A stretch of DNA of 64,000 nucleotides from a virus: the IMG/VR virus record IMGVR_UViG_3300045988_115074, positions 173,303 through 237,302 of that record, one strand, 5' to 3'. This document shows, piece after piece, positions 4,201-33,842 of the stretch. Position numbers and translations under genes: made by a program. Each line of letters opens with the position of its first letter. Within the stretch, counting starts at the first letter, position 1. Under the pieces are notes generated by a model. It was given only the letters and a program-made list of their open reading frames with translations. It was not told the DNA's origin and did no database searches.

Positions 4201-7200
4201 CTTCTTGCTGAGTAGGTGCAGTTTCAGCACTGTCTGATTCAAATAAACCAAAACTACTCGCTAAACCAGTAATAATACCAATACCAGGAACAGCAGCAAA
4301 TAAACTAAACTTACCAGCACCTTTAATAAAGTCTGTAACAGGTTTACTCTCAGTCGCACTGGCTGCTAATGCACCACCTGCGGCGGCTGCTGCTACACCT
4401 ACACCCATTGTACCAATATCTTTAGCTTTTGACTTATCTAAGCCAGCTTCTATTTTAGCAGTTTCAGCATCTTTCTTAGATTGCTCTTGTAATCCATTTG
4501 CCATTGCAGCGCCTTGTGCAAACTTAGCACCTTCTGGAGTGGATTTAATCTTAGCTAAAATATTATCAATAAAGCTAATTGCTTGGTCACCTGAACTGTT
4601 AACAGCAGCGTCTTTAAATGGAGATTGTGTAGAATTATATTCGCCTGGTTTTGGTTTAATACCTACGTAGTATTTGTATTCTTCTTGGTCTTTTAAATCA
4701 TAAGCATCTTCAGCACTATACTTAGGATTAATACCTTTTAATACACTCATGGTTTTTGTAAACACAGGTTTAAACCTAGAGTTATACCAGTACATCCAGT
4801 TAGCTGTATGTTCTTGATCCTCTTTATCGACATCGAATAGTTCCATTACATCTTCAATGTCTAATTTAGATTCATCGATGGAAATCTGTCCATTTACATA
4901 ACGAACAGCTTCGTCTAACATATTCTCAAACTTCAGAATAATCTTAGCTTTCTTCTCATCTTCATCTGGATTAAAACCATACATTAACAAACGTGCTTTT
5001 ACTTTGTCATTGATTTTGGTATCATTTTTCAGTAGTTTATAAAGACCATAACCTACTGCACCTACAGCGGCTGTACCTAAGATAGCCCAACCAATTGGGT
5101 TAGTAGCTAAGAATGTAGCTGCGGTACCTAGACCACTGGCTAAGCCACCTAAACCAATACCTGGAGTCATTGCAGCAGATAAAGCTAAACCACCCGCATC
5201 CCATGCAGCATCACCAAAGTTACCTTGAGCAAGATTACTTGCCATGGATACACCAGAAGTTACCATACCTAGACCACCTAGGAGTTTACCACCTAGTTTA
5301 GCAGAACCACCCATGAGTTTACCGGCTATACCACCTGCTTTTGTACCTCCAAATAAACCACCAGCAGCTTTTCCTATAATGCCTGCACCTGGTATCTTAG
5401 ATGCTACTTTACCTAAAAAGCCACCAGCTGCTTTACCACCTACCGATGCCGCTTTACCGCCACCTTTCAAACCCATTAAGCCTAATACACCAGCACCTAC
5501 GGTTTTAGCACCATCCCAAAGTGTACTTAACAAACCACCACTTTCTTCCTCTTCACCTTCTTTATCACCTTTCTTTTTACCTTTGCCAAAACCAAATGGT
5601 AAAAGACTTGCAATCATAGAGGCTAATCGGAAATCTCGCTTAGCTTGTTTTTCGTCTTCAGCTTTTTCTTTCTTCTCTTCTGCTCGTTTCTTACGGTTAT
5701 CAGCCATGCCATTTTCACGTAAACCATCACCATCTACATCACCTAAAGTGCCTGCAGGTAATGGGATACGTTTATCTAAGAGATTATAAATAGCATAGAG
5801 GTATCGATTGGTATCGTTAACTAAAGCAAGATTCAGGAACATACCATCCATTGCTGATTTTACTTTACCAATACCTTTATCGAAACCAGATTTAAATCCA
5901 GAAGCGGCACCTGATAGTACAGCCCAACCAATCTTAGCTGCACCTACAGCTAAGTTAAAACCAAATCGAGCTAATTTAAAACCACCGACTACAGTTTTAA
6001 CACCTAAGTTCACACCTTTAGAAACTAAGGTACCAGCCATGTTGGATAGTTTCTTAGCTACTAATTTACCCATTGTACCAATCTTGTTACCATTTTTATC
6101 TACTAAACCTTTTTCGATTTCTTCTTGGGTAACAATGATAGTAGGTGTACCAGTTTCTTGCATTTGTCTGATATCGTAAATAGGCCCTACCATTTTACGA
6201 GCATCAGTTACGTAGTCATTTGTACCTTCATCGTAATACATTCTATCTTTAATATCACGAGCTAACATTACTGGGTTTTTCAAGTCACTAGGTAAGTATA
6301 CGTCTACTTGTAAAGCATTAGCATAACCTTCTTTTACTCTTCCGTAAAGATTATGTTTCTTAGCTAACATATGTCCTGCTGCTAATATAACACCGGCTGG
6401 GCCTAATAGTGCTGCGCCTACTGCTAAGCCACCTAATTTACGAAGTACTTTTTTCTCTTTAAACCAATTCATTGCTTTTACAACAGTTGGTTTATTCTTA
6501 AACATTACAATAGAATCTTTAAACTCATCGTAGGTTAATAAGAGATTACCTTCTTCATCGTAAATTGAACCTTGGATGTCTTCCCATTTTTTAATGACTT
6601 TACCTTCAGCTGTACGGTATTTACCCATCATGAAATCTTTGGCTTTTAAGATAGGCTCAGGTGTGCCTTGTCTATAGACATCCATGAATTTATCTTTAAG
6701 TTTATTTGATTTATCGTTATAAAAATCTTGTACATTCTTCATGTACTTATCTTTATTATCTCTAAATAAATCAATAGCACCACCAACAACACTAGCACCC
6801 ATACCAAAGGCTGCAGGTATACCTGTTCTAAATGGCCATGTACCAATACCCCAAAGGAACTCTGCATTTTGTCTAAGCAAAGATTTCTTTTGGTCTTCTA
6901 TTGATTCATTCGGTTTAGGGGGACCCATTACTTGGCGTTTACGTCTAAAGATATTATTAGCAAACTGCCACCAACGCTTACCTGTTTGTGTGGTAGGGTC
7001 ACTATTCTCTACTTTATCTGAAATAGCTAATGAACTTAAAGTATCCAATTTCTGTACAGCTACTTTTAAATACAGATTGGTTAGAGTTGTATTATCAGCA
7101 ATGATTTCTAAATTAGATTTACCTTCTTTGTTGCTACCGATTTGGGTATTAAGTGTATTCTTAATAGAATCAAATGCATCCGTAGATTTTTCAGCAGTTC

Positions 7201-9841: not shown

Positions 9842-11317
9842 ATGGATGAAAATTACAATAAGAAAGTAAAGGCCAGAACACCTTTTAATCTTTCTTTACT
9901 TAATCTAGATTCTGGAAATATTTATAAACAATTAGGCAAAGTTACTTCTGGTAATATGTTCGATGGTGCTAACTATAACTTGCACCCAGAAGGTCTTTGG
10001 TCTAATGAAATCTTTGGGCCTGTAGGCGACCCATTGCGTTTAAAGAAACAAGCCTATATGGATTTAAATGTAGAGATTCTACATCCTTTAGTTTATCGTG
10101 AATTGATTTCAGCAAATAGATTGTTAGATGAGATTATGGCTGGTACTACATTTGCTGTTTTTGACGAAGAAACGAAACAGTTTGTTCGCTCTAATGCAAT
10201 TGATGGTGAAACTGGTTATGATTTCTTCTTTAGAAATTTTGATAAGTATCAATTACCAGATACTGGTTCACCAAAAAGACGTGAGACTATTAAATTAATT
10301 GAAAAGAATAAAGACATTCTTAAGATTAATAAATTCATTATTCTACAAGCTGGTTATCGTGATGTAGAATTTAAAGATGGTCAGATTTCCCATGATGAAG
10401 TAAACCAAATTTATCGTGAGTTATTGTCTTTAGCTTCTTCGATTGGTAGTACTTCGCATAAATCAAACATGGCTTTATTAAATAATACGCGATATGCTAT
10501 TCAGAAGACAGCTTTAAAACTGTTTATGTACCTAGGTGAAATTACAGGTCATGGTAAGAAGAAATTAATCCAAGGTAAATGGGCTTCACGTAACGTATTC
10601 CAAACTACTCGTAACGTGATTACAGCTCCTAAAGCATCTGGTCGTTTTGCACACGATAAAGATAACCAAGGCTATAATAATATTGTCGTTGGTTTATACC
10701 AGCAATTGGTATCTTGTTTACCATTTGCTATTCGTGGTATTAAAAACAGTTTCTTAAAAGATAAGTTTTCAGACCCTTTGCATCCAGTTAAATTGGTTAA
10801 TAAGAAAACACTAAAAGAAGAAGATGTCTATCTTAATCAAGATTGGTTTGATGTATTCCAATCTGATGAAGGTATTCGTAAACTTATCCATCGTTTTAAA
10901 CCTGATGCTGTTAGACATAAAGCCATTGAAGTAGATGGTTATTATCTTGCGTTAATTTATAAAGGTCCTGATAATACTTTTAAAATCATGAATAGTATTA
11001 CAGAATTACCACCTGGTAGAAGTAAGGAAGATGTACACCCATTAACATTTATCGAATTACTTTATATTTGTACTTACCATGAAATTAACAATACTCCAGG
11101 TTTTGCTACACGATATCCTATTACAGGTATTGGTAGTAATGTTCCTGGTAATACAATTGTCATGACAACTACTAAGACCGAAAAACGTAAGATGTTAAAC
11201 GATAATTGGGAGATAGACGATAATAGTCTAGAGTTTTTAAAATTTCCTGTATACGGAATGGATTTTTTCAATTCCATGAGTCCGCCAGTGACAGCGTATA
11301 AAGGGATGGGCGCGGAT
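9842..11317 (+). CDS. RNA polymerase beta'-like subunit, N-terminal fragment, exon 1
   Basis: GKKKLIQGKWASRNVFQTTRNVITAP resembles beta' [34 protein letters not shown] resembles NRAPTLHRLGIQ; ends ..SPPVTAYKGMGAD, the first half of the NADFDGD Mg site; the stop 2 codons later is read as intronic. Exon end is inferred. Confidence 0.75.
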
Positions 11318-12922
11318 AAATGACCATAAAAAATAGCAATTTATGGACATTTAGTACTAACCACCTATTTATGAATTATGTTCAAGTTTTTGAATAACTT
11401 TATAGATAGGTAATTAAAATGTTAAGAAGACACAATGATAAAACCGATGATATCTTTCTGGAAACAGATAAAGACTATTACACAGTAAATATTCAAGGTG
11501 ATATTTTCCATGTAGAAAAATCAGTACCACCATCTGTTAAGCAAGTATTGCCTTTTGAAAAAGAAGGTGAATTCTTTGTAAATATTGAAGGCAAAGAAGT
11601 AAGAATTGCTAATATTGTTAATTTTGTATTTAAGAATACTAATCCTGATTTCTTTTGGGAAATAATGGATTGGGATATAATCTACGTTGATGGTAATAAA
11701 GGTAATCTATATCCATTTAATCTTAGTTGGAATAATACCAATATTAAAGACGATGAAGATGGATTTAGATTAATTCCTGGATTTACTAGATATAAAATTA
11801 ATAGAGAAGGTGTGATTAAAAAAATAAGCAATGGTAGGATAATATCTGACACTCTAGATAAATCATTACGTGTAAAAGCACCTTATGTAAAAAACACCAT
11901 ATGTAGGGATTATGATTTAGTATATAGAAAATGTGGTAAACATAGACTACTAGCATACGCTTATTTACCAATGCCTAATAACTTTTTTGAATTAGATGTT
12001 AGTCACTTAGATTGTAATCCACAGAACAATGACTTATCTAACCTGAGATGGCAAAGTCGTAGAGAAAATAACCTACAGACTGCCAAACAATATCTAATTA
12101 TGGTGCAACAACCCATGTTGGTTTATAACTGCGATACTAAGGAAATTAAAGAATACTTTAGTATTGGAGAGATGCAAAGGCAATTAGGTATCGGTAAAGG
12201 TGTGGGTGAGATGAGATTATTATCTAGAGGCACTGTTAGATATCCAGATGGTTATGCTTATATGTTAAAAAGTGATTTTAATGGTGAATGGCCTGAAGTT
12301 AAATACAATAACAGAAGACCTATTATTAGTTATCCTATTAAAGTTACTATTAAAAAGACTGGTGAAGTAATAACATACAATGGTCTTAATAATTTAGCAA
12401 AAGCACTTGGTACTGGTATAGATAGGTGGCAGCATCGATTGCGTAGACCACCGTTTAAGTGGGAAGATGAGTCTATCATTGTAGAAAAAGATATCGCTAA
12501 TGGTAAACATATCTGTAATTAACATTTTAATACTGGTATAGTATTAAAATCGTTGTCCGCTTCTCTTAGAAATAAGAGAATAGCAAACCCCTCTAATTGA
12601 CGGGAAAACTGTAAAAAGGCTAATACACTAACTATAGGTAGTAATACACTATAGGGCTTAATCTAACCAATTAAGAGATAGTAAAAGAGATTAGTCAATA
12701 CAATAACCCGCAGCGAAGCGCCCTTAGTATTAAGGGTGAACGTTCAGAGACCAGTCGAAAGACGTAGGACTCAAGTGAGTCCCAAATGGGGGGCAGATAC
12801 AGTGGATTTGTAATAAAATACAAATCCTCTATGTATCCTCCTTAGTAGCTTTATAGTTACTTTGGAGTCTTAGCAAGTAATGTTGAAGATGATGATATGG
12901 TCCACTTTCTAGTCCCCGAAAA
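11318..12922 (+). mobile_element. group I intron carrying an HNH homing endonuclease gene, inserted in the beta' DxDGD motif
   Basis: Splits the catalytic motif; 3' part has the group I R-like element GTTCAGAGACCAGTCGAAAGACG and blocks shared with the nrdA intron; 5' junction GAT|AAATG is identical to the beta intron at 17708/17709. The 3' junction is not resolved (no terminal G at the frame-restoring site). Confidence 0.65.
11419..12522 (+). CDS. intron-encoded HNH homing endonuclease
   Basis: ORF track; HLDCNPQNNDLSNLRWQSRRENN is an HNH_3-type H-N-N motif; IPGFTRYKINREGVIKKISNGRII is a NUMOD4-like N-terminal motif; lies wholly inside the interruption of the beta' gene. Confidence 0.8.
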   Translation: MLRRHNDKTDDIFLETDKDYYTVNIQGDIFHVEKSVPPSVKQVLPFEKEGEFFVNIEGKEVRIANIVNFVFKNTNPDFFWEIMDWDIIYVDGNKGNLYPFNLSWNNTNIKDDEDGFRLIPGFTRYKINREGVIKKISNGRIISDTLDKSLRVKAPYVKNTICRDYDLVYRKCGKHRLLAYAYLPMPNNFFELDVSHLDCNPQNNDLSNLRWQSRRENNLQTAKQYLIMVQQPMLVYNCDTKEIKEYFSIGEMQRQLGIGKGVGEMRLLSRGTVRYPDGYAYMLKSDFNGEWPEVKYNNRRPIISYPIKVTIKKTGEVITYNGLNNLAKALGTGIDRWQHRLRRPPFKWEDESIIVEKDIANGKHICN

Positions 12923-13108
12923 AACGATGGGGATATGTGTAACCTTATTTGTTCATTTACTGAGGAATCTAAAAATGAGATTAAACAGTATAAAAAAGAG
13001 AAAAAAGCTTACCTTGATAGCGACGGCAGGATTCGTTATCCCTTGGGCTTTGACACGATTAACTTTGTTTGCCATAATCTTGGTACTTTTGAGGAAAGTG
13101 TGAAATGA
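12923..13108 (+). CDS. RNA polymerase beta'-like N fragment, exon 2
   Basis: Own translation: NDGDMCNLICSFTEESKNEIKQYKKEKKAYLDSDGRIRYPLGFDTINFVCHNLGTFEESVK*. It aligns residue for residue with E. coli [47 protein letters not shown]. The stop overlaps the next ATG (ATGA). Not in ORF track (no ATG). Confidence 0.7.
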   Translation, partial: NDGDMCNLICSFTEESKNEIKQYKKEKKAYLDSDGRIRYPLGFDTINFVCHNLGTFEESVK

Positions 13109-16100
13109 GAATAAACTACAATAACTTTTATCTTAAATTCGGTAATCGAACTGTAGATAAATTACAAGCTCCTAGGATTTTTAATTTATCTAAATTTATT
13201 TTACCGAAACAAAATGCTTTTCATTACTTTGGTAGTACCAGTGATGATGTAGGGCCGAGTAAAACTAACCCTATGTTTGCGGAAACTGTACAGCGTATTC
13301 CTATTTATTTTTACCAAGACTTAATTACGCGTTTAGGTAACATGAATGTACGTGCGTTTATGCCTTTGGAAGTTATTCGTAAATATATTAAACAAAACCA
13401 TAAGTTTATCCCTTGTTACGATTTAAGTAAAGTAAAACCTAATCCTTTAGTACCTGTTATTTTAAACTACGCTATCTGCGATAAAAGATATAAATACTTA
13501 GGTAATGAAATTCGTATTCCTTATTATAAGAATACGAATATTATTAATACCTTTATTAAAGGGATGAAAGACATTTACGATGCCCATGGTGATTATTATA
13601 ATCAGTTTATTTTCTTAAATGTACCTGATTTAAAAGACTTACCAAAAGTATCTGAGATGAAGATGGCTGCGAATGTTACTACTAACGCATTCTTCACTCG
13701 TTTTAATACATTTGAAAAACTCATTATTTTCGAATTGTGGAAATGGTTGGGTTTAAATCGTAATAAGTCTATCTTTAAAAACATTCCTTTAAAAATTCTA
13801 GATAAGATTAACTTTGTTTTTATTAGTAATAATGTCTTTACTTATTATTCTTTAGGTCAATTAGACAGATGGCGTAAATCTGATGAAAATAAATCAGGTA
13901 AACTAGATCCGACTAATATGTCTAAAAACTTTGTTAAAATGCTTATTCAATTAAACAAAGCTTCTATAGATTCTAGTTTGATTGAATTAACTGAAGAAGA
14001 AGTAGTAGAACAAGAAGCTAAAGAGACTGAAGACTTTAAAGGTTCTGATGACGAATCTAATAAAGATAAACAAAGTAAATCATTTACAGATACTAAGGTA
14101 AATGAAAAACCAGTAGATGTAGACGATGTAGATGATACAACTGATGGTACTGATGAATCTGATGTAGAAGAGAATGAAGAAGATAATCTGGATATTAGTG
14201 AAAACATTATCACAGATGATTCTGCTGACTTGACTGTTCAAAAAGATTTAGATATCATTGGCGATATTATCGACGACGAGGATGATACTGACTATTCAGA
14301 ATCTCTTGAATCTAAAGAACAAGAGAAGAAAAGTAATATTAATATTAGCCGAGTAGTCTCTATACCTACTGAGCAAGAAGAGGAATTTAACGATAAGATT
14401 GATACTAATTTAGATGTGTCTGATATCTTAAATGTATCTAAATTACCTATTGAAGAAATTCCTGTCTTAGTAACTAAACCTAAAGAGACAAAAACAGCTG
14501 AAGAGAAAGCCAAAGCTGCTTTAGATTATATTGCCAAAAACCAAAACATGACAGTATCTAAATACGATGGTATTCGTAAATCTATTGGTAAGTATCGTAA
14601 TTTGAAATTAACCAATGACAGTAAAATGACCGTCGGTGAAATGGTTAATACTAAACCTGAAGAATTAGAAATTTCAAATGAAGATAAAGAAGTTTCTACT
14701 TTAAATGTAATGGGTAAGCGCTACATTGAGAAACACTTGGAACGAGATGTAGCAGCAATGATGGTAGGTATTCAAGGTGGTGGTGCGATTGTACACGATA
14801 TACGTAAGCAAACTCATGAAAACATCATGGGTGGTTACGATGTATACTCCATGAAGATTAAACCCATCGAAGGTGAGCAATCTACCATTCGTGTTAAACT
14901 ACCTAGAGTAAACAGCGATGGTAAGTTTAAGGTCAGCGGAGTCGATTACGTACTTAGAAATCAAAGACGAGATCTTCCCATTCGTAAAATTAACGATAGT
15001 ACTGTGGCATTGACTTCTTACTTTGGTAAAACATTTGCTAAACGTGATACTACTCGTCAGTTTAATTACGAGAAATGGTTAATTGGACAAATACGCGCTA
15101 TAGCATTTAATCCAGAATTAGATTCAGTAAAAGAAACACGCAGTGGTGATGTATTTGATAATAATGTAAAAGCTCCAGATATTTACTCTTTATTATCCAT
15201 GCACTTTAGGGCAGTAACCACAAAAGACGCTTTTATCTATTTTGATTATCACAAAGCCAATGAACGTTTTGGTAATGACTTAGTTAGAAGTGTAGAATCT
15301 AAAGGATTATTCTTTGCTGGTAGTTATAAAGGTAAATTTGGCTTAGGTGTTAATGAAGACGGTATTTTCTATTCTGTTATTGGTAATGAAGTAACGGAAC
15401 TAGGTGATATCGAATCCATGTGTGGTATTGATTCATCTAAAGCACCTGTAGAATCAGTAACTATTGATATCATGGGTAAGCCTTTGCCAATTGGTTTAGT
15501 ATTGGGTTATAAACTTGGTCTAACTAAACTGATTGCTGCTTTAAAACCAAAATACTATAAAACAGTCAAAACAGGTACACGTGTTAAATTAGAAAGTCAT
15601 GAATACATGATTAAGTTTTCTGATTTCTCTTTAGTATTATCTCGTAAAGACAGAATGGCTTCATTAATCTTATCTGGTTTAAGTAAGTGTGATACCAGTG
15701 ATACTGCAATAACCCTATTAGATAGAAAAGAAATCTATTTTAATCTATTAGAGTCTATTAAAATTCCAGGACGATATGTTAAAGAAATTGATTTATACAA
15801 CAACATGTTTGTAGACCCGATTACTGAACGTATCTTGATTGAAATGAATGAGCCTACTGATTTTACTGGTTTATTAATTCGTTCTGTTGAATTGTTATTA
15901 ACTCGCTATCATGCTGATGAAGTAGACATGACTGGTCAACGTATTGCCGGTTATGAAAGAATGGCTGGTGAAGTATATAAAGCTATTGTTAATTCATTGC
16001 GTGAGCATAATCGTCATGGTATTAAAGCAAACTATCCAATTGAACTTAACCCTGAAGCAGTATGGATGTCTATCTTAAAAGATACATCTAAACAGACTGT

Positions 16101-16413
16101 AGAGAACTTAAATCCAATTCAAGATTTAAAACAACAAGAAGTAACGACATTTAGTGGTAATGGTGGTCGTGGTAAGAAAAGTATGGTTAAACGTACACGT
16201 ATTCACCACAAGACTTCTATAGGTGTTATTTCAGAAGCTACTGTCGATAGTAGTGATGCTGGTGTAACCACTTATATGTCTGCTAATCCTAAGTTTAAAT
16301 CATTATACGGTTTACCTGAAAATTCTGGTACCGAAGAAGTGAATAAGGATTTAAAACCTGAAAACGTATTCTCTACAGCAATGATGATGTATCCATGCTC
16401 TGATACAGACGAT
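13105..16413 (+). CDS. RNA polymerase beta-like subunit, exon 1
   Basis: ORF track; TFSGNGGRGKKSMVKRTRIHHKTSIGVISEATVDSSDAGV resembles beta [40 protein letters not shown]; ends ..YPCSDTDD (compare FLEHDD|ANRALMG). Confidence 0.85.
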
Positions 16414-16796
16414 TGATTAAATATAAAGATTGGGTCGTCTCTAAACCGTTTGAATTGCGGGGACCTCTCGCTAAGTACTTTGTACCAACCCAGGGTAGCG
16501 ATATACTTGGGGGCAGCTCTAATCAAGCTGATACGGTAAAAAGCAAAGTAATAGAGAAAATCCGCAGCCAAGATTCTGCTTTTGTATATAGTAGAATAAG
16601 GTTCAACGACTATCGAAAGCACGCTTGTTAGTAAATTAGGATTAACAAGTGGAAGTGAGTAGAGTAGGGGGTCTGCACAACGTAGACTCTCCCAAGCTGA
16701 CGGGCCGTAGGTCTAACCAACCTGCGGTATGATATAGTCTACTTAAGAAACGATTAAGCATGAAATACTTTCATATGCGTAATTCGTTCATATGTG
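16414..16796 (+). mobile_element. ORF-less group I intron in beta gene
   Basis: Follows exon U (GAT|); ends ..ATATGTG|; contains the R element GGTTCAACGACTATCGAAAG and the S element GATATAGTCTAC. Removing it restores DTDD-PKRSVFLGTQINHS (compare EHDDANRALMGANMQRQ) in frame. Confidence 0.8.
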
Positions 16797-17708
16797 CCCA
16801 AACGTAGCGTTTTTCTAGGGACTCAGATTAATCACAGCCTATCTACCTCTAATGGTCAGGTAATGCCTCTGCGTACTGGCTATGATGAAAAACTAGTAGA
16901 GCGTTGTAGTGATATGTACGCTTCTACTGCTGAACAAGATGGTGTCGTCACTGATGTTAATGATTTCGGTATTACTGTTACTTATAGAGACGGTAGTACG
17001 AAACAAGTAGAAATCGGTAGACGTTATGGTTCTAGTGGTGGTTTCAATACTGCTCACGATATTACTACTCATTTGAAGAAAGGTGATAAAGTTAAGAAAG
17101 GTGACGCGATAGCGTATAACTCTGACTTCTTTACATCTGACCCAATGAAGCCTGGTAAATTAGCAATGAAAACTGGTGTATTAGGTAAAGTGGCATTGAT
17201 TGAGCATCCATATACTTTTGAAGACTCTACCGCTATTACTCGTAAGTTTGGTGAAAATACCCGTGTAAAAACTGTAGTGAAAAAAGAAGTAGTAGTAAAC
17301 TTTGACCAAAGTATCCATAGACTGGCTAAACCTGGTACTGTAGTTAAGATTGATGACCCATTATGTTATATTGAAGATAGTATTACTCACGATGGTAGTC
17401 TATTTGATGAAAACAGTATTGACTTGTTAAGAAACTTAAGTAAGTCAGCTCCTAAAAGTAGCATTAATGGTGTTATTGATAAAGTAGAAGTATTCTATAA
17501 TGGTGATAAAGAAGATATGTCTGAATCACTAATGAAGATTGCTAATGCTTCTGATAATAAATTGGTTGCTCTACAAAAAGCTTTAGGTAAAAAACCATAT
17601 ACTGGTGAAGTAGATGACACCTATCGCGTAGATGGTAATCCATTACTTGTAGATACTGCTGTAATTGTATTTACTATCAGCAGTAACCAAGGTATTAGTG
17701 TCGGCGAT
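16797..17708 (+). CDS. RNA polymerase beta-like subunit, exon 2
   Basis: PKRSVFLGTQINHS..; VALIEHPYTFEDSTAITRKF resembles [32 protein letters not shown] resembles VSGTVIDVQVF; ends ..ISVGD. Length 912 nt keeps the frame. Confidence 0.85.
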
Positions 17709-18078
17709 AAATGTTAACTTTAATAAAGTGAGTTAACTTGTCCTTCTAGGTAGTAATACCTAGTCGAATGTCCTCTAATTGCTGGAAGTCCCTTAGAGTC
17801 TATTTAACCACAACGTAATTAGAAATAATAAGCGTGAGGGTTTGAGAATAAATAGAATTGGGTAATCAGCAGCTAAGCAGCTAAGTGTTTATTGTTTAAT
17901 TAACATAAGCTGAAAGTTCAACGACTAACCGCTTGCCACGGTGTACATTCAAGTGAATGAAAACGGGGACTTCCCTATAACTGGTAGTTATTGTTATAGG
18001 GAAAAGATATAGTCTTGTCTTACATGAAAGTGTAAGCAGTGTGTAATACACACGGGTAAGAGCTAACGACTCTTATTG
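17709..18078 (+). mobile_element. ORF-less group I intron in beta gene
   Basis: GAT|AAATG 5' junction; ends ..CTTATTG|; R element AGTTCAACGACTAACCGC and S element AAGATATAGTCTTG. Splicing gives VGD-KMSKLVYGCQLKATV (compare [14 protein letters not shown]). Confidence 0.8.
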
Positions 18079-18318
18079 AAAATGTCGAAACTGGTCTATG
18101 GATGCCAGCTCAAGGCCACTGTGGGCTATGTGTATGATGATCCGCCACGTCTTGCTAATAAGGATGGTTCTATGGGTATGGAACTTGATGCTATCTTTGG
18201 TAGCAACAGCGTTTATAATAGGATCGTCAATAGTCCTTTCCTAATGGGTATGACAAATATGTTGTTAGTAGAGATGAGTAAAAAGGTAGCGGATACCTAC
18301 TTTAATAGTAAAAATTAG
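18079..18318 (+). CDS. RNA polymerase beta-like subunit, exon 3 (polypeptide ends here)
   Basis: KMSKLVYGCQLKATVGYVYDDPPRLANKDGSMGMELDAIFGSNSVYNRIVNSPFLMGM aligns with [55 protein letters not shown]; followed by a hairpin. Confidence 0.75.
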   Translation, partial: KMSKLVYGCQLKATVGYVYDDPPRLANKDGSMGMELDAIFGSNSVYNRIVNSPFLMGMTNMLLVEMSKKVADTYFNSKN

Positions 18319-33431: not shown

Positions 33432-33842
33432 TGGTCCGCGAGGTGGGACTCGAACCCACACGACCTATGGTCGAAAGATTTTCTTACTACTCTTGCTTTC
33501 ACAAGCCTGGTATAGTTATCAGTTGTAGTCTGGACTATATCATTACCTTCAACTTTACTTGCTAAGGTATCCTGAGCGTAGTCTCTGAACCTTCCTCTTA
33601 TCCTACTTAAAGACTTAGAGGCTCGGCTGCTGATTGACCAATTTCCGATATTCTTATAACTTTCGTATTCGTCGTTTCCAACCACACTGTAGTCATCGGA
33701 ACTATAAGGTTATTCCAGCAGTTTCCAGGATTCTCATCTATATATTTCTATATAGCGGCTCTATGTTCATCTAAATATCAGTTAAGATATTAAGACTACT
33801 ATACTAAAGTCTTTTATGTCTACCCAATTCCATCACTCGCGG
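33432..33842 (-). tRNA. tRNA-Leu: tRNA-Leu(UAA) interrupted by a group I intron (exons 33842-33807 and 33482-33432)
   Basis: The joined exons give an 87-nt class II tRNA: acceptor CCGCGAG/CTCGCGG, D arm ATGGAATTGGGTAGACAT, anticodon stem AAAGA/TCTTT, loop CT-TAA-AA, long variable arm CGACCATAGGTCG, T arm GTGGGTTCGAGTCCCAC, encoded CCA. Confidence 0.8.
33483..33806 (-). mobile_element. group I intron in the tRNA-Leu(UAA) anticodon loop (between nt 34 and 35)
   Basis: 324 nt; follows an exon U and ends in G; R element GGTTCAGAGACTACGC and S element ATGATATAGTCCAGAC; the first 15 nt can pair with exon AAGACT (P1). Confidence 0.75.

What the first reader, a model, noticed from the sequence alone, without database searches (positions are those of the whole stretch)
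11318..12922. Group I intron with HNH endonuclease splits the RNAP beta' catalytic DxDGD motif; its 3' junction is non-canonical
Exon 1 ends ..VTAYKGMGAD and is then stopped by an in-frame TGA. About 1.6 kb downstream, an ATG-less frame reads NDGDMCNLICSFTEES.. and aligns residue for residue with E. coli FDGDQMAVHVPLTLEA... Joining 11317 to 12923 rebuilds a three-Asp Mg-binding motif (GAD-N-DGD). The interruption contains an HNH_3 homing endonuclease and group I core-like sequence. The 5' junction GAU|AAAUG is identical to that of the beta intron at 17708. However, the only frame-restoring 3' junction is preceded by A (..CCCCGAAAA|AAC), not the usual terminal G. Sequence homology with the nrdA intron would put the core's end about 22 nt further upstream (~12900). 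So either splicing is unusual or the mature junction differs from my prediction.
Basis: partly seen in the sequence, partly recalled or inferred. Interest (0 to 1): 0.7.

Follow-up and report, generated by a model that had tools for sequence, protein, structure and literature searches.

The report
Phage RNA-polymerase intron ending in A
A self-splicing group I intron carrying a homing-endonuclease gene sits inside the catalytic Asp motif of a jumbo phage's virion RNA polymerase, as in phage phiKZ, but here and in most close relatives its last base is A instead of the near-universal G.

Summary
Window 11318-12922 is a 1605-nt group I intron with an HNH_3/NUMOD1 endonuclease ORF in the P1 loop. 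It splits the phiKZ-gp180-type virion RNAP beta' N-subunit between D and N of GAD|NDGD.

The junction 11317|12923 rests on three lines of evidence:
- Intron-less alleles in 96-98% identical phages read GAD-NDGD without a break.
- A 12-nt guide sequence (12549-12560) pairs exactly with both exon ends (P1 and P10).
- P10 covaries in 11 of 11 intron variants.

The last intron base is therefore A12922, not G. This is not a sequencing error. Six distinct 3'-end types in about 19 contigs end in A, and three types in three contigs end in G. All share the same catalytic core and a canonical G-C guanosine-binding pair. A second covarying helix joins the P9 loop to exon-2 bases +7 to +11. Together with P10 it clamps 11 exon bases.

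The overall arrangement is already known. PhiKZ gp180/gp179 has an intron at the same site, ending in G. Introns ending in A are known from Coxiella and corals. What is new is the G/A polymorphism on one ribozyme core and the extra exon clamp. No RNA data were available.

The parts
9842..11317 (+). Exon 1 of the virion RNAP beta' N-terminal subunit (phiKZ gp180 family), 492 codons, ending ..GMGAD. The last base U11317 forms the U.G wobble of P1.
   Evidence: ORF list. tblastn to 312 phage records. Alignments A1 and A3. Profile hit to AR9 beta' 7S00/7S01, E 2e-16.
11318..12922 (+). The whole group I intron (1605 nt), with A12922 as its terminal (omega) base.
   Evidence: Boundaries come from intron-less alleles L004/L005/L006/L014, from P1/P10 and from Rfam.
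11321..11323 (+). UGA that stops ribosomes reading from exon 1 into the intron (GAU AAA UGA).
11322..11348 (+). Hairpin at the 5' end of the P1-loop insert (GACCAUAAA..UUUAUGGAC). It is present only in ORF-bearing forms and shows compensatory changes in relatives.
   Evidence: L048 GACCGUAAA/UUUACGGUC, L007 GUCCAUAAA/UUUAUGGAC, L053 UUACCGUAAA/UUUACGGUAA.
11419..12522 (+). HNH_3 + NUMOD1 homing-endonuclease ORF (367 aa) in the P1 loop, preceded by AGGT 8 nt upstream of the ATG.
   Evidence: Pfam. PHROG 959/59, HNH endonuclease. 80% identical ORF in L041. Absent from the 383-nt form L012/L015.
12549..12560 (+). Internal guide sequence AUCGUU|GUCCGC. Bases 12555-12560 pair with exon 1 GCGGAU (P1). 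Bases 12549-12554 pair with exon 2 AACGAU (P10).
   Evidence: Single exact match in the window, against 0.19 expected even when one mismatch is allowed. The P10 pair is G-C in 7 variants and A-U in 4.
12561..12903 (+). Catalytic core. P2 12561-12580. P3 12588-12593 with 12788-12793. P4 12599-12604 with 12707-12711. P5/P5a-c 12610-12704. P6/P6a 12713-12743. P7 12749-12752 with 12899-12902, keeping a canonical G-C guanosine-binding pair. P7.1 12754-12763. P7.2 12767-12782. P8 12796-12837. Extra hairpin 12838-12867. J8/7 12888-12898.
   Evidence: Rfam alignment. Coordinates. 98.7% of cells are paired, against 38-48% in the slid controls.
12906..12921 (+). P9 hairpin, UUUC/GAAA with loop UAGUCCCC. 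It directly abuts the terminal base.
   Evidence: The stem is replaced by AGUUU/AAACU, AAAUU/AAUUU, AAAUU/GAUUU, AGCUA/UAGCU, ACUA/UAGU or UAUU/AAUA in relatives.
12913..12917 (+). P9-loop bases UCCCC that pair with exon-2 bases GGGGA (12929-12933).
   Evidence: The middle pair is C-G in 5 variants, A-U in 5 and U.G in 1. RNAalifold predicts the helix independently. An equivalent AUCAC/GUGAU pairing exists in the distant relative L055.
12922..12922 (+). Terminal intron nucleotide (omega position), A instead of G.
   Evidence: The identical 3' end is found in independent contigs L048 and L052.
12923..13108 (+). Exon 2 (61 codons plus TGA), NDGDMCN...EESVK. Its stop overlaps the ATG of the beta gene (13105).
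   Evidence: It is intact in all 8 A-ending variants for which exon 2 was extracted, with 17 variable third positions against 8 and 7 at positions 1 and 2.

Best explanation
This is a mobile IA2-type phage group I intron. It is inserted between the first Asp codon and the following codon of the Mg-binding DxDGD motif of the virion RNA polymerase beta' N-subunit, in a phiKZ-like (chimallivirus-type) jumbo phage.

Shown by sequence comparison:
- The mature mRNA must join U11317 to A12923.
- The intron has a complete group I core with a canonical G-C guanosine-binding pair in P7.
- Its guide sequence pairs with both exon ends (P1 of 6 bp with a U.G wobble, P10 of 6 bp).
- Its P9 loop pairs with exon-2 bases +7 to +11.
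- It ends in A.

Inferred:
- Free guanosine attacks after U11317, as in any group I intron.
- For exon ligation, the 3' splice site is held by the contiguous 11-nt clamp (P10 plus the P9-loop:exon helix, with P9 stacked directly against the terminal base). The weak fit of A in the guanosine pocket is therefore tolerated.
- Ligation yields the 553-aa GADNDGD protein.
- The HNH/NUMOD1 ORF in the P1 loop is a homing endonuclease that spreads the intron into intron-less alleles. Such alleles coexist in the same phage population.
- The terminal base is G in the ancestral state (phiKZ and distant relatives) and drifted to A in this lineage.
For: Junction:
- Intron-less alleles at 96-98% protein identity read GCGGAC|AACGAC and similar, giving GAD|NDGD.
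- 28 homologues keep D492, D494, G495 and D496 invariant.

Group I identity:
- Rfam gives E 7.4e-10 for the window and 46.8 bits with a correctly aligned P1 in the ORF-less form.
- Relatives at the same site pass the gathering score (61.6 and 53.7 bits; phiKZ 92.2 bits).
- The manual structure has 98.7% of cells paired, against 38-48% in the slid controls.

P1, P10 and the clamp:
- The guide 12-mer has one exact match, placed exactly upstream of P2.
- The P10 pair is G-C in 7 variants and A-U in 4. The loop:exon pair is C-G in 5, A-U in 5 and U.G in 1. The two covariations occur in four combinations.

Terminal A is real and under selection:
- Six different A-ending 3' ends occur in about 19 contigs, many of 230-243 kb.
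- P9 stems show compensatory change.
- Exon 2 is intact, with a third-position excess of variation.
- Exon 2 has no start codon of its own.

Precedent:
- The Coxiella 23S intron 'lacks the canonical omegaG' (title seen).
- The coral ND5-717 intron lacks the terminal G yet gives ligated exons in vivo.
Against: - No RNA evidence was available. An exact look-up of five predicted spliced proteins found none in the protein collection.
- In model ribozymes such as Tetrahymena, changing the terminal G to A blocks exon ligation unless the binding pair is also changed (my recollection of Price and Cech 1988 and Been and Perrotta 1991). Here the G-C binding pair is unchanged in all variants, so there is no visible compensating change in specificity.
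- The Rfam score is below the curated cut-off.
- The clamp idea rests on covariation with only two or three states per pair. Part of that could reflect linkage of the intron with flanking exon during homing.
- Local folding energies of the loop:exon hairpin are not significant on their own (z from -0.5 to -2.0).
- One A-ending contig (L052) has a frameshifted exon 1, and one G-ending contig (L042) has a deletion in exon 1. These could be assembly errors or defective genomes.
Confidence: 0.8

Rival explanations
1. The intron splices at the predicted junction, but the A-ending forms need a protein helper for the second step. Candidates are a phage or host RNA chaperone, a maturase-like factor, or the intron's own HNH/NUMOD1 protein. 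In this view the RNA clamp is not what makes the terminal A tolerable.
For: The G-binding pair is unchanged, so the RNA alone should bind A poorly (sequence). Many group I introns need protein factors in vivo (review PMC3984707).
Against: The ORF-less 383-nt form also ends in A and sits in 235-238 kb contigs, so the intron's own ORF is not required in cis. The covarying loop:exon helix argues that RNA-level positioning is under selection.
Confidence: 0.25
2. The A-ending alleles are splicing-defective, decaying introns. The genomes carrying them are dead ends or are rescued by co-infecting phages.
For: Terminal G to A blocks ligation in model ribozymes (recollection). One A-ending contig (L052) has a frameshifted exon 1.
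Against: A-ending forms are the majority (about 19 contigs against 3) and occur in near-complete genomes from many samples. There are six different A-ending 3' ends. P9 stems, P10 and the loop:exon helix are all kept by compensatory change. Exon 2 and the HNH ORF are intact. The virion RNAP carries out early transcription in this phage group (PMC11620839), and the intron cuts through its catalytic motif.
Confidence: 0.07
3. The terminal A is a sequencing or assembly error, and the true base is G.
For: It lies in a run of six A.
Against: The identical ..CCCCGAAAA|AACGAU end occurs in two other contigs that differ elsewhere (L048, L052). Other variants end ..AAACUA|..AAUUUA|..GAUUUA| and ..UAGCUA|, with no G within reach.
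Confidence: 0.01
4. Splicing uses the nearest canonical G (G12918 or G12926), and the frame is restored by a shifted 5' site or by ribosomal frameshifting on the A run.
For: It would keep the terminal G. AAAAAAC resembles a slippery site.
Against: Every combination was enumerated by hand. Each gives a stop codon (GAU AAA UGA.. or ..UGG GGA UAU GUG UAA) or changes the D-x-D-G-D spacing, which is invariant in 28 homologues. P10 places exon base +1 at 12923, with covariation. Variant L009 has no G within 19 nt of the junction.
Confidence: 0.01
5. There is no splicing, and the beta' N-subunit is made as two polypeptides that assemble.
For: Jumbo-phage RNAP subunits are naturally split elsewhere (PMC7598289).
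Against: Exon 2 has no in-frame start before the DGD codons. The first in-frame start is the ATG at 12935, after the motif. The break would fall inside the Mg-binding loop. Intron-less alleles encode one chain.
Confidence: 0.01

Closest known systems
phiKZ gp180/gp179 intron (Pseudomonas phage phiKZ, AF399011)
   Same: Same gene (virion RNAP beta' N-subunit). Same insertion point, GAD|FDGD. Same layout: 5' splice site, then the HNH ORF (gp179), then the group I core, then a 61-codon exon 2, then the beta gene. The same species also has an intron-less strain (KTN4).. Introns in phiKZ gp179/gp180 are mentioned in PMC11512511.
   Different: The phiKZ intron ends canonically (..AUAACG|UUCGAC) and scores 92 bits in Rfam. 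Its HNH protein is only about 29% identical over about half its length.
PhiPA3 gp210 intron in the virion RNAP beta gene (Birkholz et al. 2024, PMC11620839); 201phi2-1 gp273/274
   Same: A group I intron with an HNH nicking homing endonuclease, inserted at conserved Asp residues of a chimallivirus virion RNAP gene.
   Different: It sits in a different subunit (beta, not beta'). No unusual terminal base is reported. The window's own two beta introns (16414-16796 and 17715-18093) are ORF-less and end in G.
Coxiella burnetii 23S rRNA intron Cbu.L1917 (Raghavan et al. 2007, J Bacteriol 189:6572)
   Same: A bacterial-world group I intron whose last base is A instead of G. It is reported as self-splicing. 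The title was seen; the details are my recollection because the paper is not held.
   Different: It is an rRNA intron in a bacterium, a single fixed sequence. No G/A polymorphism or loop:exon helix is known to me.
Hexacoral mitochondrial ND5-717 group I intron (PMC6545197)
   Same: It lacks the universally conserved terminal G, yet perfectly ligated exons are found in vivo.
   Different: It is an organellar, obligatory, giant intron removed by back-splicing, and is thought to depend on host factors.
Engineered Tetrahymena ribozyme with an A-specific binding site (Been and Perrotta 1991, my recollection)
   Same: It shows that the terminal base and the P7 binding pair act together in step 2, and that a terminal A can be used.
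   Different: There the G-C binding pair had to be changed to A-U. Here it stays G-C in both A-ending and G-ending variants.

Membership tests
Group I intron (Rfam RF00028; phage IA2-like) | Conserved core helices P3-P8, including the P7 pseudoknot | tested here: met
   Rfam full-length alignment, E 7.4e-10. The manual structure on 11 variants has 98.7% of cells paired, against 38-48% when slid.
Group I intron (Rfam RF00028; phage IA2-like) | Score at or above Rfam's curated gathering cut-off (50 bits) | tested here: not met
   The window scores 45.3 bits and the ORF-less L012 scores 46.8 bits. Homologous introns at the same site do pass: L059 61.6, L057 53.7, phiKZ 92.2.
Group I intron (Rfam RF00028; phage IA2-like) | P1 helix between the 5' exon and an internal guide, with a U.G wobble at the cleavage site | tested here: met
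   GCGGAU (11312-11317) pairs with GUCCGC (12555-12560). U.G in 10 of 11 variants and C-G in one.
Group I intron (Rfam RF00028; phage IA2-like) | P10 helix between the guide and the 3' exon, which defines the 3' splice site | tested here: met
   AUCGUU (12549-12554) pairs with AACGAD-encoding AACGAU (12923-12928). The compensatory pair is G-C in 7 and A-U in 4.
Group I intron (Rfam RF00028; phage IA2-like) | G-C guanosine-binding pair in P7 | tested here: met
   AGACC (12748-12752) pairs with GGUC (12899-12902). It is invariant G-C in 11 of 11 variants (helix 12).
Group I intron (Rfam RF00028; phage IA2-like) | Terminal guanosine (omega G) as the last intron base | tested here: not met
   The last base is A12922. 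Across 12 sequence variants (11 in alignment A2 plus L053) it is A in 9, forming 6 distinct 3'-end types, and G in 3. Rfam can reach a G only by running 4 nt into the exon.
Group I intron (Rfam RF00028; phage IA2-like) | Guanosine-initiated self-splicing | not testable with these tools
   This needs an in vitro splicing assay or cDNA.
HNH homing endonuclease (I-HmuI / phiPA3 gp210 type) | HNH_3 catalytic domain and a NUMOD-type DNA-binding module above the Pfam cut-offs | tested here: met
   HNH_3 36.2 bits (cut-off 24.8) and NUMOD1 26.1 bits (cut-off 22.8). PHROG 959 at 1.3e-19.
HNH homing endonuclease (I-HmuI / phiPA3 gp210 type) | Encoded inside a self-splicing intron, with intron-plus and intron-minus alleles in one population | tested here: met
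   The ORF lies in the P1 loop. Intron-less alleles are L004-L006 and L014. The ORF-less intron is L012/L015.
HNH homing endonuclease (I-HmuI / phiPA3 gp210 type) | Site-specific nicking or cleavage of the intron-less allele | not testable with these tools
   This needs an enzyme assay.
Multisubunit RNAP beta' (jumbo-phage virion RNAP N-terminal subunit, phiKZ gp180 family) | Full-length homology and gene order with gp181-, gp180- and gp178-type genes | tested here: met
   312 phage records match, 296 of them covering at least 80% of the query. Same neighbours in FLC9, 201phi2-1 and KTN4.
Multisubunit RNAP beta' (jumbo-phage virion RNAP N-terminal subunit, phiKZ gp180 family) | Relationship to solved beta' subunits and the catalytic (N)ADFDGD motif | tested here: met
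   The profile of 28 homologues hits AR9 beta' 7S00/7S01 at E 2e-16, with gaDfDGD aligned to GDYDGD, and bacterial beta' at 1e-5 to 1e-6. A single-sequence search found nothing.

The most novel reading that the evidence does not exclude
In this intron family the identity of the terminal nucleotide has become nearly neutral. G-ending and A-ending alleles share one unchanged catalytic core and G-binding pair. The 3' splice site is fixed by an 11-nt two-helix clamp on exon 2 (P10 plus a P9-loop:exon helix that forms a pseudoknot around the splice site). If this is right, wild phage populations hold a ready-made allelic series for asking how much the guanosine pocket contributes to the second step of group I splicing. 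The family would also be the first phage example known to me of an intron lacking the terminal G.
Probability: 0.35. Interest if true: 0.7.

Novelty: new variant of a known kind. Interest (0 to 1): 0.5.

Why it matters
The terminal G is treated as a universal requirement for group I exon ligation, and intron-finding tools use it to set boundaries. Here Rfam misplaces the 3' end to reach a G.

A family in which A-ending and G-ending alleles coexist on the same core, inside an essential catalytic motif, shows that the rule can be relaxed in nature. The data also point to a candidate compensating structure that can be tested by simple mutagenesis.

Practically, it warns annotators of jumbo-phage genomes. 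These beta' genes are called as truncated 490-500-aa proteins plus an orphan 61-codon piece. Of the window's four group I introns, this one was missed at the curated threshold and the other three were given wrong ends.

The homing-endonuclease side fits the recently described role of such introns in competition between co-infecting chimalliviruses.

Tried and rejected
- Whole-window Rfam at the curated threshold found no intron in 11318-12922. Only the permissive local search did.
- Megablast against GenBank phages found nothing. The phage is known only from metagenomes.
- I enumerated by hand every junction that would use a nearby G (12918, 12926) with a shifted 5' site or frameshifting. All give stops or break the invariant D-x-D-G-D spacing.
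- I looked for a specificity switch in P7 (G-C to A-U) that would explain a terminal A. There is none, and P7 is identical in A-ending and G-ending variants.
- I looked for direct evidence of spliced RNA. An exact look-up of five predicted spliced proteins found none in the collection. This is uninformative rather than negative.
- A single-sequence search of the PDB found nothing. The profile search was needed.
- RNAduplex between the two ends of the P1-loop insert gave only AU-rich, inconsistent pairings, so I dropped the idea of a closing helix.
- Local folding z-scores for the loop:exon hairpin are not significant. The case for it rests on covariation.
- The Coxiella paper could not be read, and 'Cbu.L1917' is not in the searchable library.
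Full report
**What is in the window**

Bases 9842-11323 are an ORF ending ..VTAYKGMGAD-K-stop. The ORF 11419-12522 encodes a 367-aa protein. From 12923 a frame without a start codon reads NDGDMCNLICSFTEES.. to a TGA at 13106-13108. That TGA overlaps the ATG of the next large gene.

The 367-aa protein matches Pfam HNH_3 (36.2 bits, cut-off 24.8) and NUMOD1 (26.1 bits, cut-off 22.8), and also PHROG HNH-endonuclease families.

At Rfam's curated threshold the window has three group I introns and four tRNAs, with nothing in 11318-12922. A permissive search of 11200-13100 gives a full-length RF00028 alignment at 12541-12922 (45.3 bits, gathering score 50, E 7.4e-10).

**The host gene**

The conceptual splice product (553 aa) matches 312 GenBank phage records by tblastn. 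296 of them cover at least 80% of the query. The best match is Burkholderia phage FLC9 at 39.7% identity. Others include phiKZ-type, 201phi2-1, RSL2, PCH45 and further jumbo phages, annotated as RNA polymerase beta' or as a virion-associated beta/beta'-like protein.

The neighbours are the same as in those phages: a giant gp181-type hydrolase upstream on the other strand and the gp178-type beta gene directly downstream.

A profile of 28 homologues hits the solved AR9 phage beta' N-subunit (7S00/7S01, E 2e-16). Its GDYDGD aligns with the family's gaDfDGD. The profile also hits bacterial beta' at about 1e-6. D492, D494, G495 and D496 are invariant in all 28.

**The junction is proven by intron-less alleles**

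Public viral contigs contain phages whose beta' is 96-99% identical to the window's. Four of them (L004, L005, L006, L014) are uninterrupted and read ..GCGGAC|AACGACGGTGAT.. or ..GCTGAT|AATGATGGTGAC.., that is GAD|NDGD.

The others are interrupted at exactly this point, by about 1.6 kb or, in L012/L015, by a 383-nt ORF-less version. The mature mRNA must therefore join 11317 to 12923. Shifting both sites by one or two A's gives the same RNA.

**RNA structure agrees, independently**

Immediately upstream of P2 lies the 12-mer AUCGUU|GUCCGC (12549-12560). Its 3' half pairs with the last six exon-1 bases GCGGAU, with the usual U.G at the cleavage site. Its 5' half pairs with the first six exon-2 bases AACGAU. 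This is the only exact match in the window, and 0.19 matches are expected even when one mismatch is allowed.

In the ORF-less form the two P1 strands are 15 nt apart, and Rfam aligns them as P1. In the long forms the endonuclease ORF sits in the P1 loop.

I collected the same intron from viral and metagenome contigs using a conserved core pattern. This gave 11 distinct variants, later 12 with L053. I aligned ORF-deleted constructs of the 11.

A hand-drawn group I structure (P1-P10, P7.1, P7.2 and one extra hairpin after P8) is paired in 98.7% of cells. Controls with the 3' partners slid by 1-3 columns give 38-48%.

Exon base +3 is C or U (Asn codon AAC/AAU), and the facing guide base is G or A accordingly, in 11 of 11 variants (G-C in 7, A-U in 4). 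This is a true compensatory change at a synonymous site, and it fixes exon base +1 at 12923.

**The terminal base**

The last intron base is A12922. After P7 (GGUCC) the window reads AC-UUUC-UAGUCCCC-GAAA-A|AACGAU. This is a 4-bp P9 hairpin, then A, then the exon.

The same end is found in two other contigs that differ elsewhere (L048, L052). The other A-ending types are:
- ..AGUUU-UUAAUCCCC-AAACU-A|
- ..AAAUU-AGUCACC-AAUUU-A| (found with and without the ORF)
- ..AAAUU-AGUCACC-GAUUU-A|
- ..AGCUA-UUAGUCAC-UAGCU-A|

Three types end in G..AAAAUCG|..UAGUCG| and ..AAAAUAG|.

About 19 contigs carry A forms, and many of them are 230-243 kb. Three contigs carry G forms. A sequencing error is therefore excluded.

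The P9 stem is rebuilt with different sequences in each type. Exon 2 is intact in all eight A-ending variants for which it was extracted, and variation is concentrated at third codon positions (17, against 8 and 7 at positions 1 and 2). The A forms therefore look functional.

No junction using a nearby G can work. Every combination gives a stop codon or alters the invariant D-x-D-G-D spacing, and variant L009 has no G within 19 nt.

The P7 guanosine-binding pair is G-C in all 11 aligned variants. There is no specificity switch of the kind engineered in Tetrahymena (my recollection of Been and Perrotta 1991).

**A second exon contact**

The P9 loop always contains UC(C/A/U)CC, and exon bases +7 to +11 are GG(G/U)GA (Gly codon GGG/GGU). 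The middle pair is C-G in 5 variants, A-U in 5 and U.G in 1.

This covariation combines with the P10 covariation in four different ways, which argues against simple linkage. RNAalifold predicts the helix without being told. It is the local minimum-energy fold in almost every variant, although not significantly better than shuffles.

A more distant phage (L055, beta' about 76% identical) has a different loop, AUCAC, facing GUGAU in its exon.

With P10, eleven consecutive exon bases are paired to the intron and P9 abuts the terminal base. I propose that this clamp makes the terminal A tolerable. This is an inference, not a demonstration.

**Wider context**

More distant relatives are interrupted at the same D|xDGD point:
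- L055 and L059 end in G.
- L057 has its HNH gene on the opposite strand and a long P9 extension. Its P1 is GGGGAU/GUCCCC and its P10 is UUUGAU/AUCAAG. This places the junction at ..UUAAA|UUUGAU, which again has no possible G.

PhiKZ itself has the arrangement. gp180 stops at residue 490. The HNH protein gp179 follows, then a 92-bit group I core, then exon 2. The junction is GAU|UAAUUG ... AUAACG|UUCGAC, which is canonical. Strain KTN4 of the same species is intron-less. PMC11512511 mentions introns in phiKZ gp179/gp180.

HNH-bearing group I introns in the virion RNAP beta gene are documented for phiPA3 (gp210, a nicking homing endonuclease that also serves in competition between phages; PMC11620839) and are annotated in 201phi2-1.

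Introns lacking the terminal G are known from the Coxiella 23S rRNA gene (title; paper not held) and from coral ND5-717, where exons are ligated in vivo (PMC6545197).

1. The beta intron's 5' junction is not GAU|AAAUG at 17708. The intron-less beta allele reads ..GGCGATAAATGT|GTCTATGGA... The window's two beta introns are therefore 16414-16796 (..GAU|UGAUUAA ... AUAUGUG|CCC) and 17715-18093 (..AAAUGU|UAACUU ... AACUG|GUC). Both have U at -1 and a terminal G.
2. The intron at about 33.5 kb is not in nrdA. It lies in a tRNA-Leu(UAA) gene.
3. The core does not end 22 nt early. P7 ends at 12902, and a normal P9 follows.

**Verdict**

The element is a group I intron with a homing endonuclease in a place where such introns are already known, so the kind is not new. 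What stands out:
- the terminal A, which fails a defining feature of the family;
- its coexistence with G-ending alleles on an otherwise identical ribozyme;
- the covariation-supported loop:exon helix.

No RNA-level evidence could be obtained. Whether the A forms self-splice unaided therefore remains to be tested.

Noticed in passing
window 33432-33842 (- strand): The Rfam group I hit at 33512-33778 interrupts what reads by eye as a type-II tRNA-Leu(UAA) gene. The parts are: acceptor CCGCGAG/CUCGCGG, anticodon stem AAAGA/UCUUU, loop CUU|intron|AAAA, long variable arm, and encoded CCA. The intron would be 33806 down to 33483, between anticodon bases 34 and 35. That is the classic position of the cyanobacterial and plastid tRNA-Leu intron. 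It has U at -1 and a terminal G. ARAGORN does not call this tRNA.
   Followed up: partly
window 16414-16796 and 17715-18093 (+): The virion RNAP beta gene (13105-18318) carries two ORF-less group I introns. Their true ends, taken from an intron-less allele (L004), differ from the Rfam hit coordinates (16373-16757 and 17720-18036). Both end in G. Some relatives (L004-L006, L012) have an uninterrupted beta gene.
   Followed up: yes
window 11322-11348; L048, L007, L053 equivalents: A 9-bp hairpin lies right after the 5' splice site. It is present only in ORF-bearing forms of the intron and is maintained by compensatory changes (GACCGUAAA/UUUACGGUC, UUACCGUAAA/UUUACGGUAA). Its role is unknown. It might control expression of the HNH ORF, or protect or terminate the RNA.
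   Followed up: partly
alignment A2 columns 387-407 (window 12904-12922): The P9 region is by far the most variable part of an otherwise about 92% identical intron core. At least eight different stem and tail sequences occur. I have no explanation for this hypervariability next to the 3' splice site.
   Followed up: no
L041 (ERZ773024.6), 5' junction: This G-ending variant has C instead of U at exon position -1 (GGCGGAC|GAGCC..). P1 would then have a C-G pair in place of the conserved U.G wobble at the cleavage site. Its P7 also has a G.U pair.
   Followed up: no
L057/L058, about 4977-6789: A diverged homologue of the intron occurs at the same D|xDGD site in a phage whose beta' is about 63% identical. 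Its HNH ORF is on the opposite strand. About 270 nt lie between the Rfam-defined core end and exon 2. P1 and P10 place the junction at UUAAA|UUUGAU, so this intron too cannot end in G.
   Followed up: partly
alignment A2 columns 21-28 with 371-378 (window 12550-12557 with 12888-12895): RNAalifold prefers to pair the guide sequence UCGUUGUC with J8/7 GAUGAUGA. One-sided changes keep the pairing (G.U in 7 variants, A-U in 4). It may be a competing inactive fold or just an artefact of nested-only prediction.
   Followed up: no
L052 and L042, exon 1: Two contigs carrying the intron have damaged exon 1 sequences: a frameshift in L052 and a deletion of about 45 codons in L042. These are either assembly errors or defective genomes. 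They do not change the junction analysis.
   Followed up: no
L004/L005/L006/L014 compared with intron-bearing alleles, junction region: Intron-less alleles differ from intron-bearing exons by synonymous changes right at the homing site (GCGGAC AACGAC GGT, or GCTGAT/GCTGAC AATGAT GGT, against GCGGAT AAYGAT GGK). These could be endonuclease-resistant variants.
   Followed up: no
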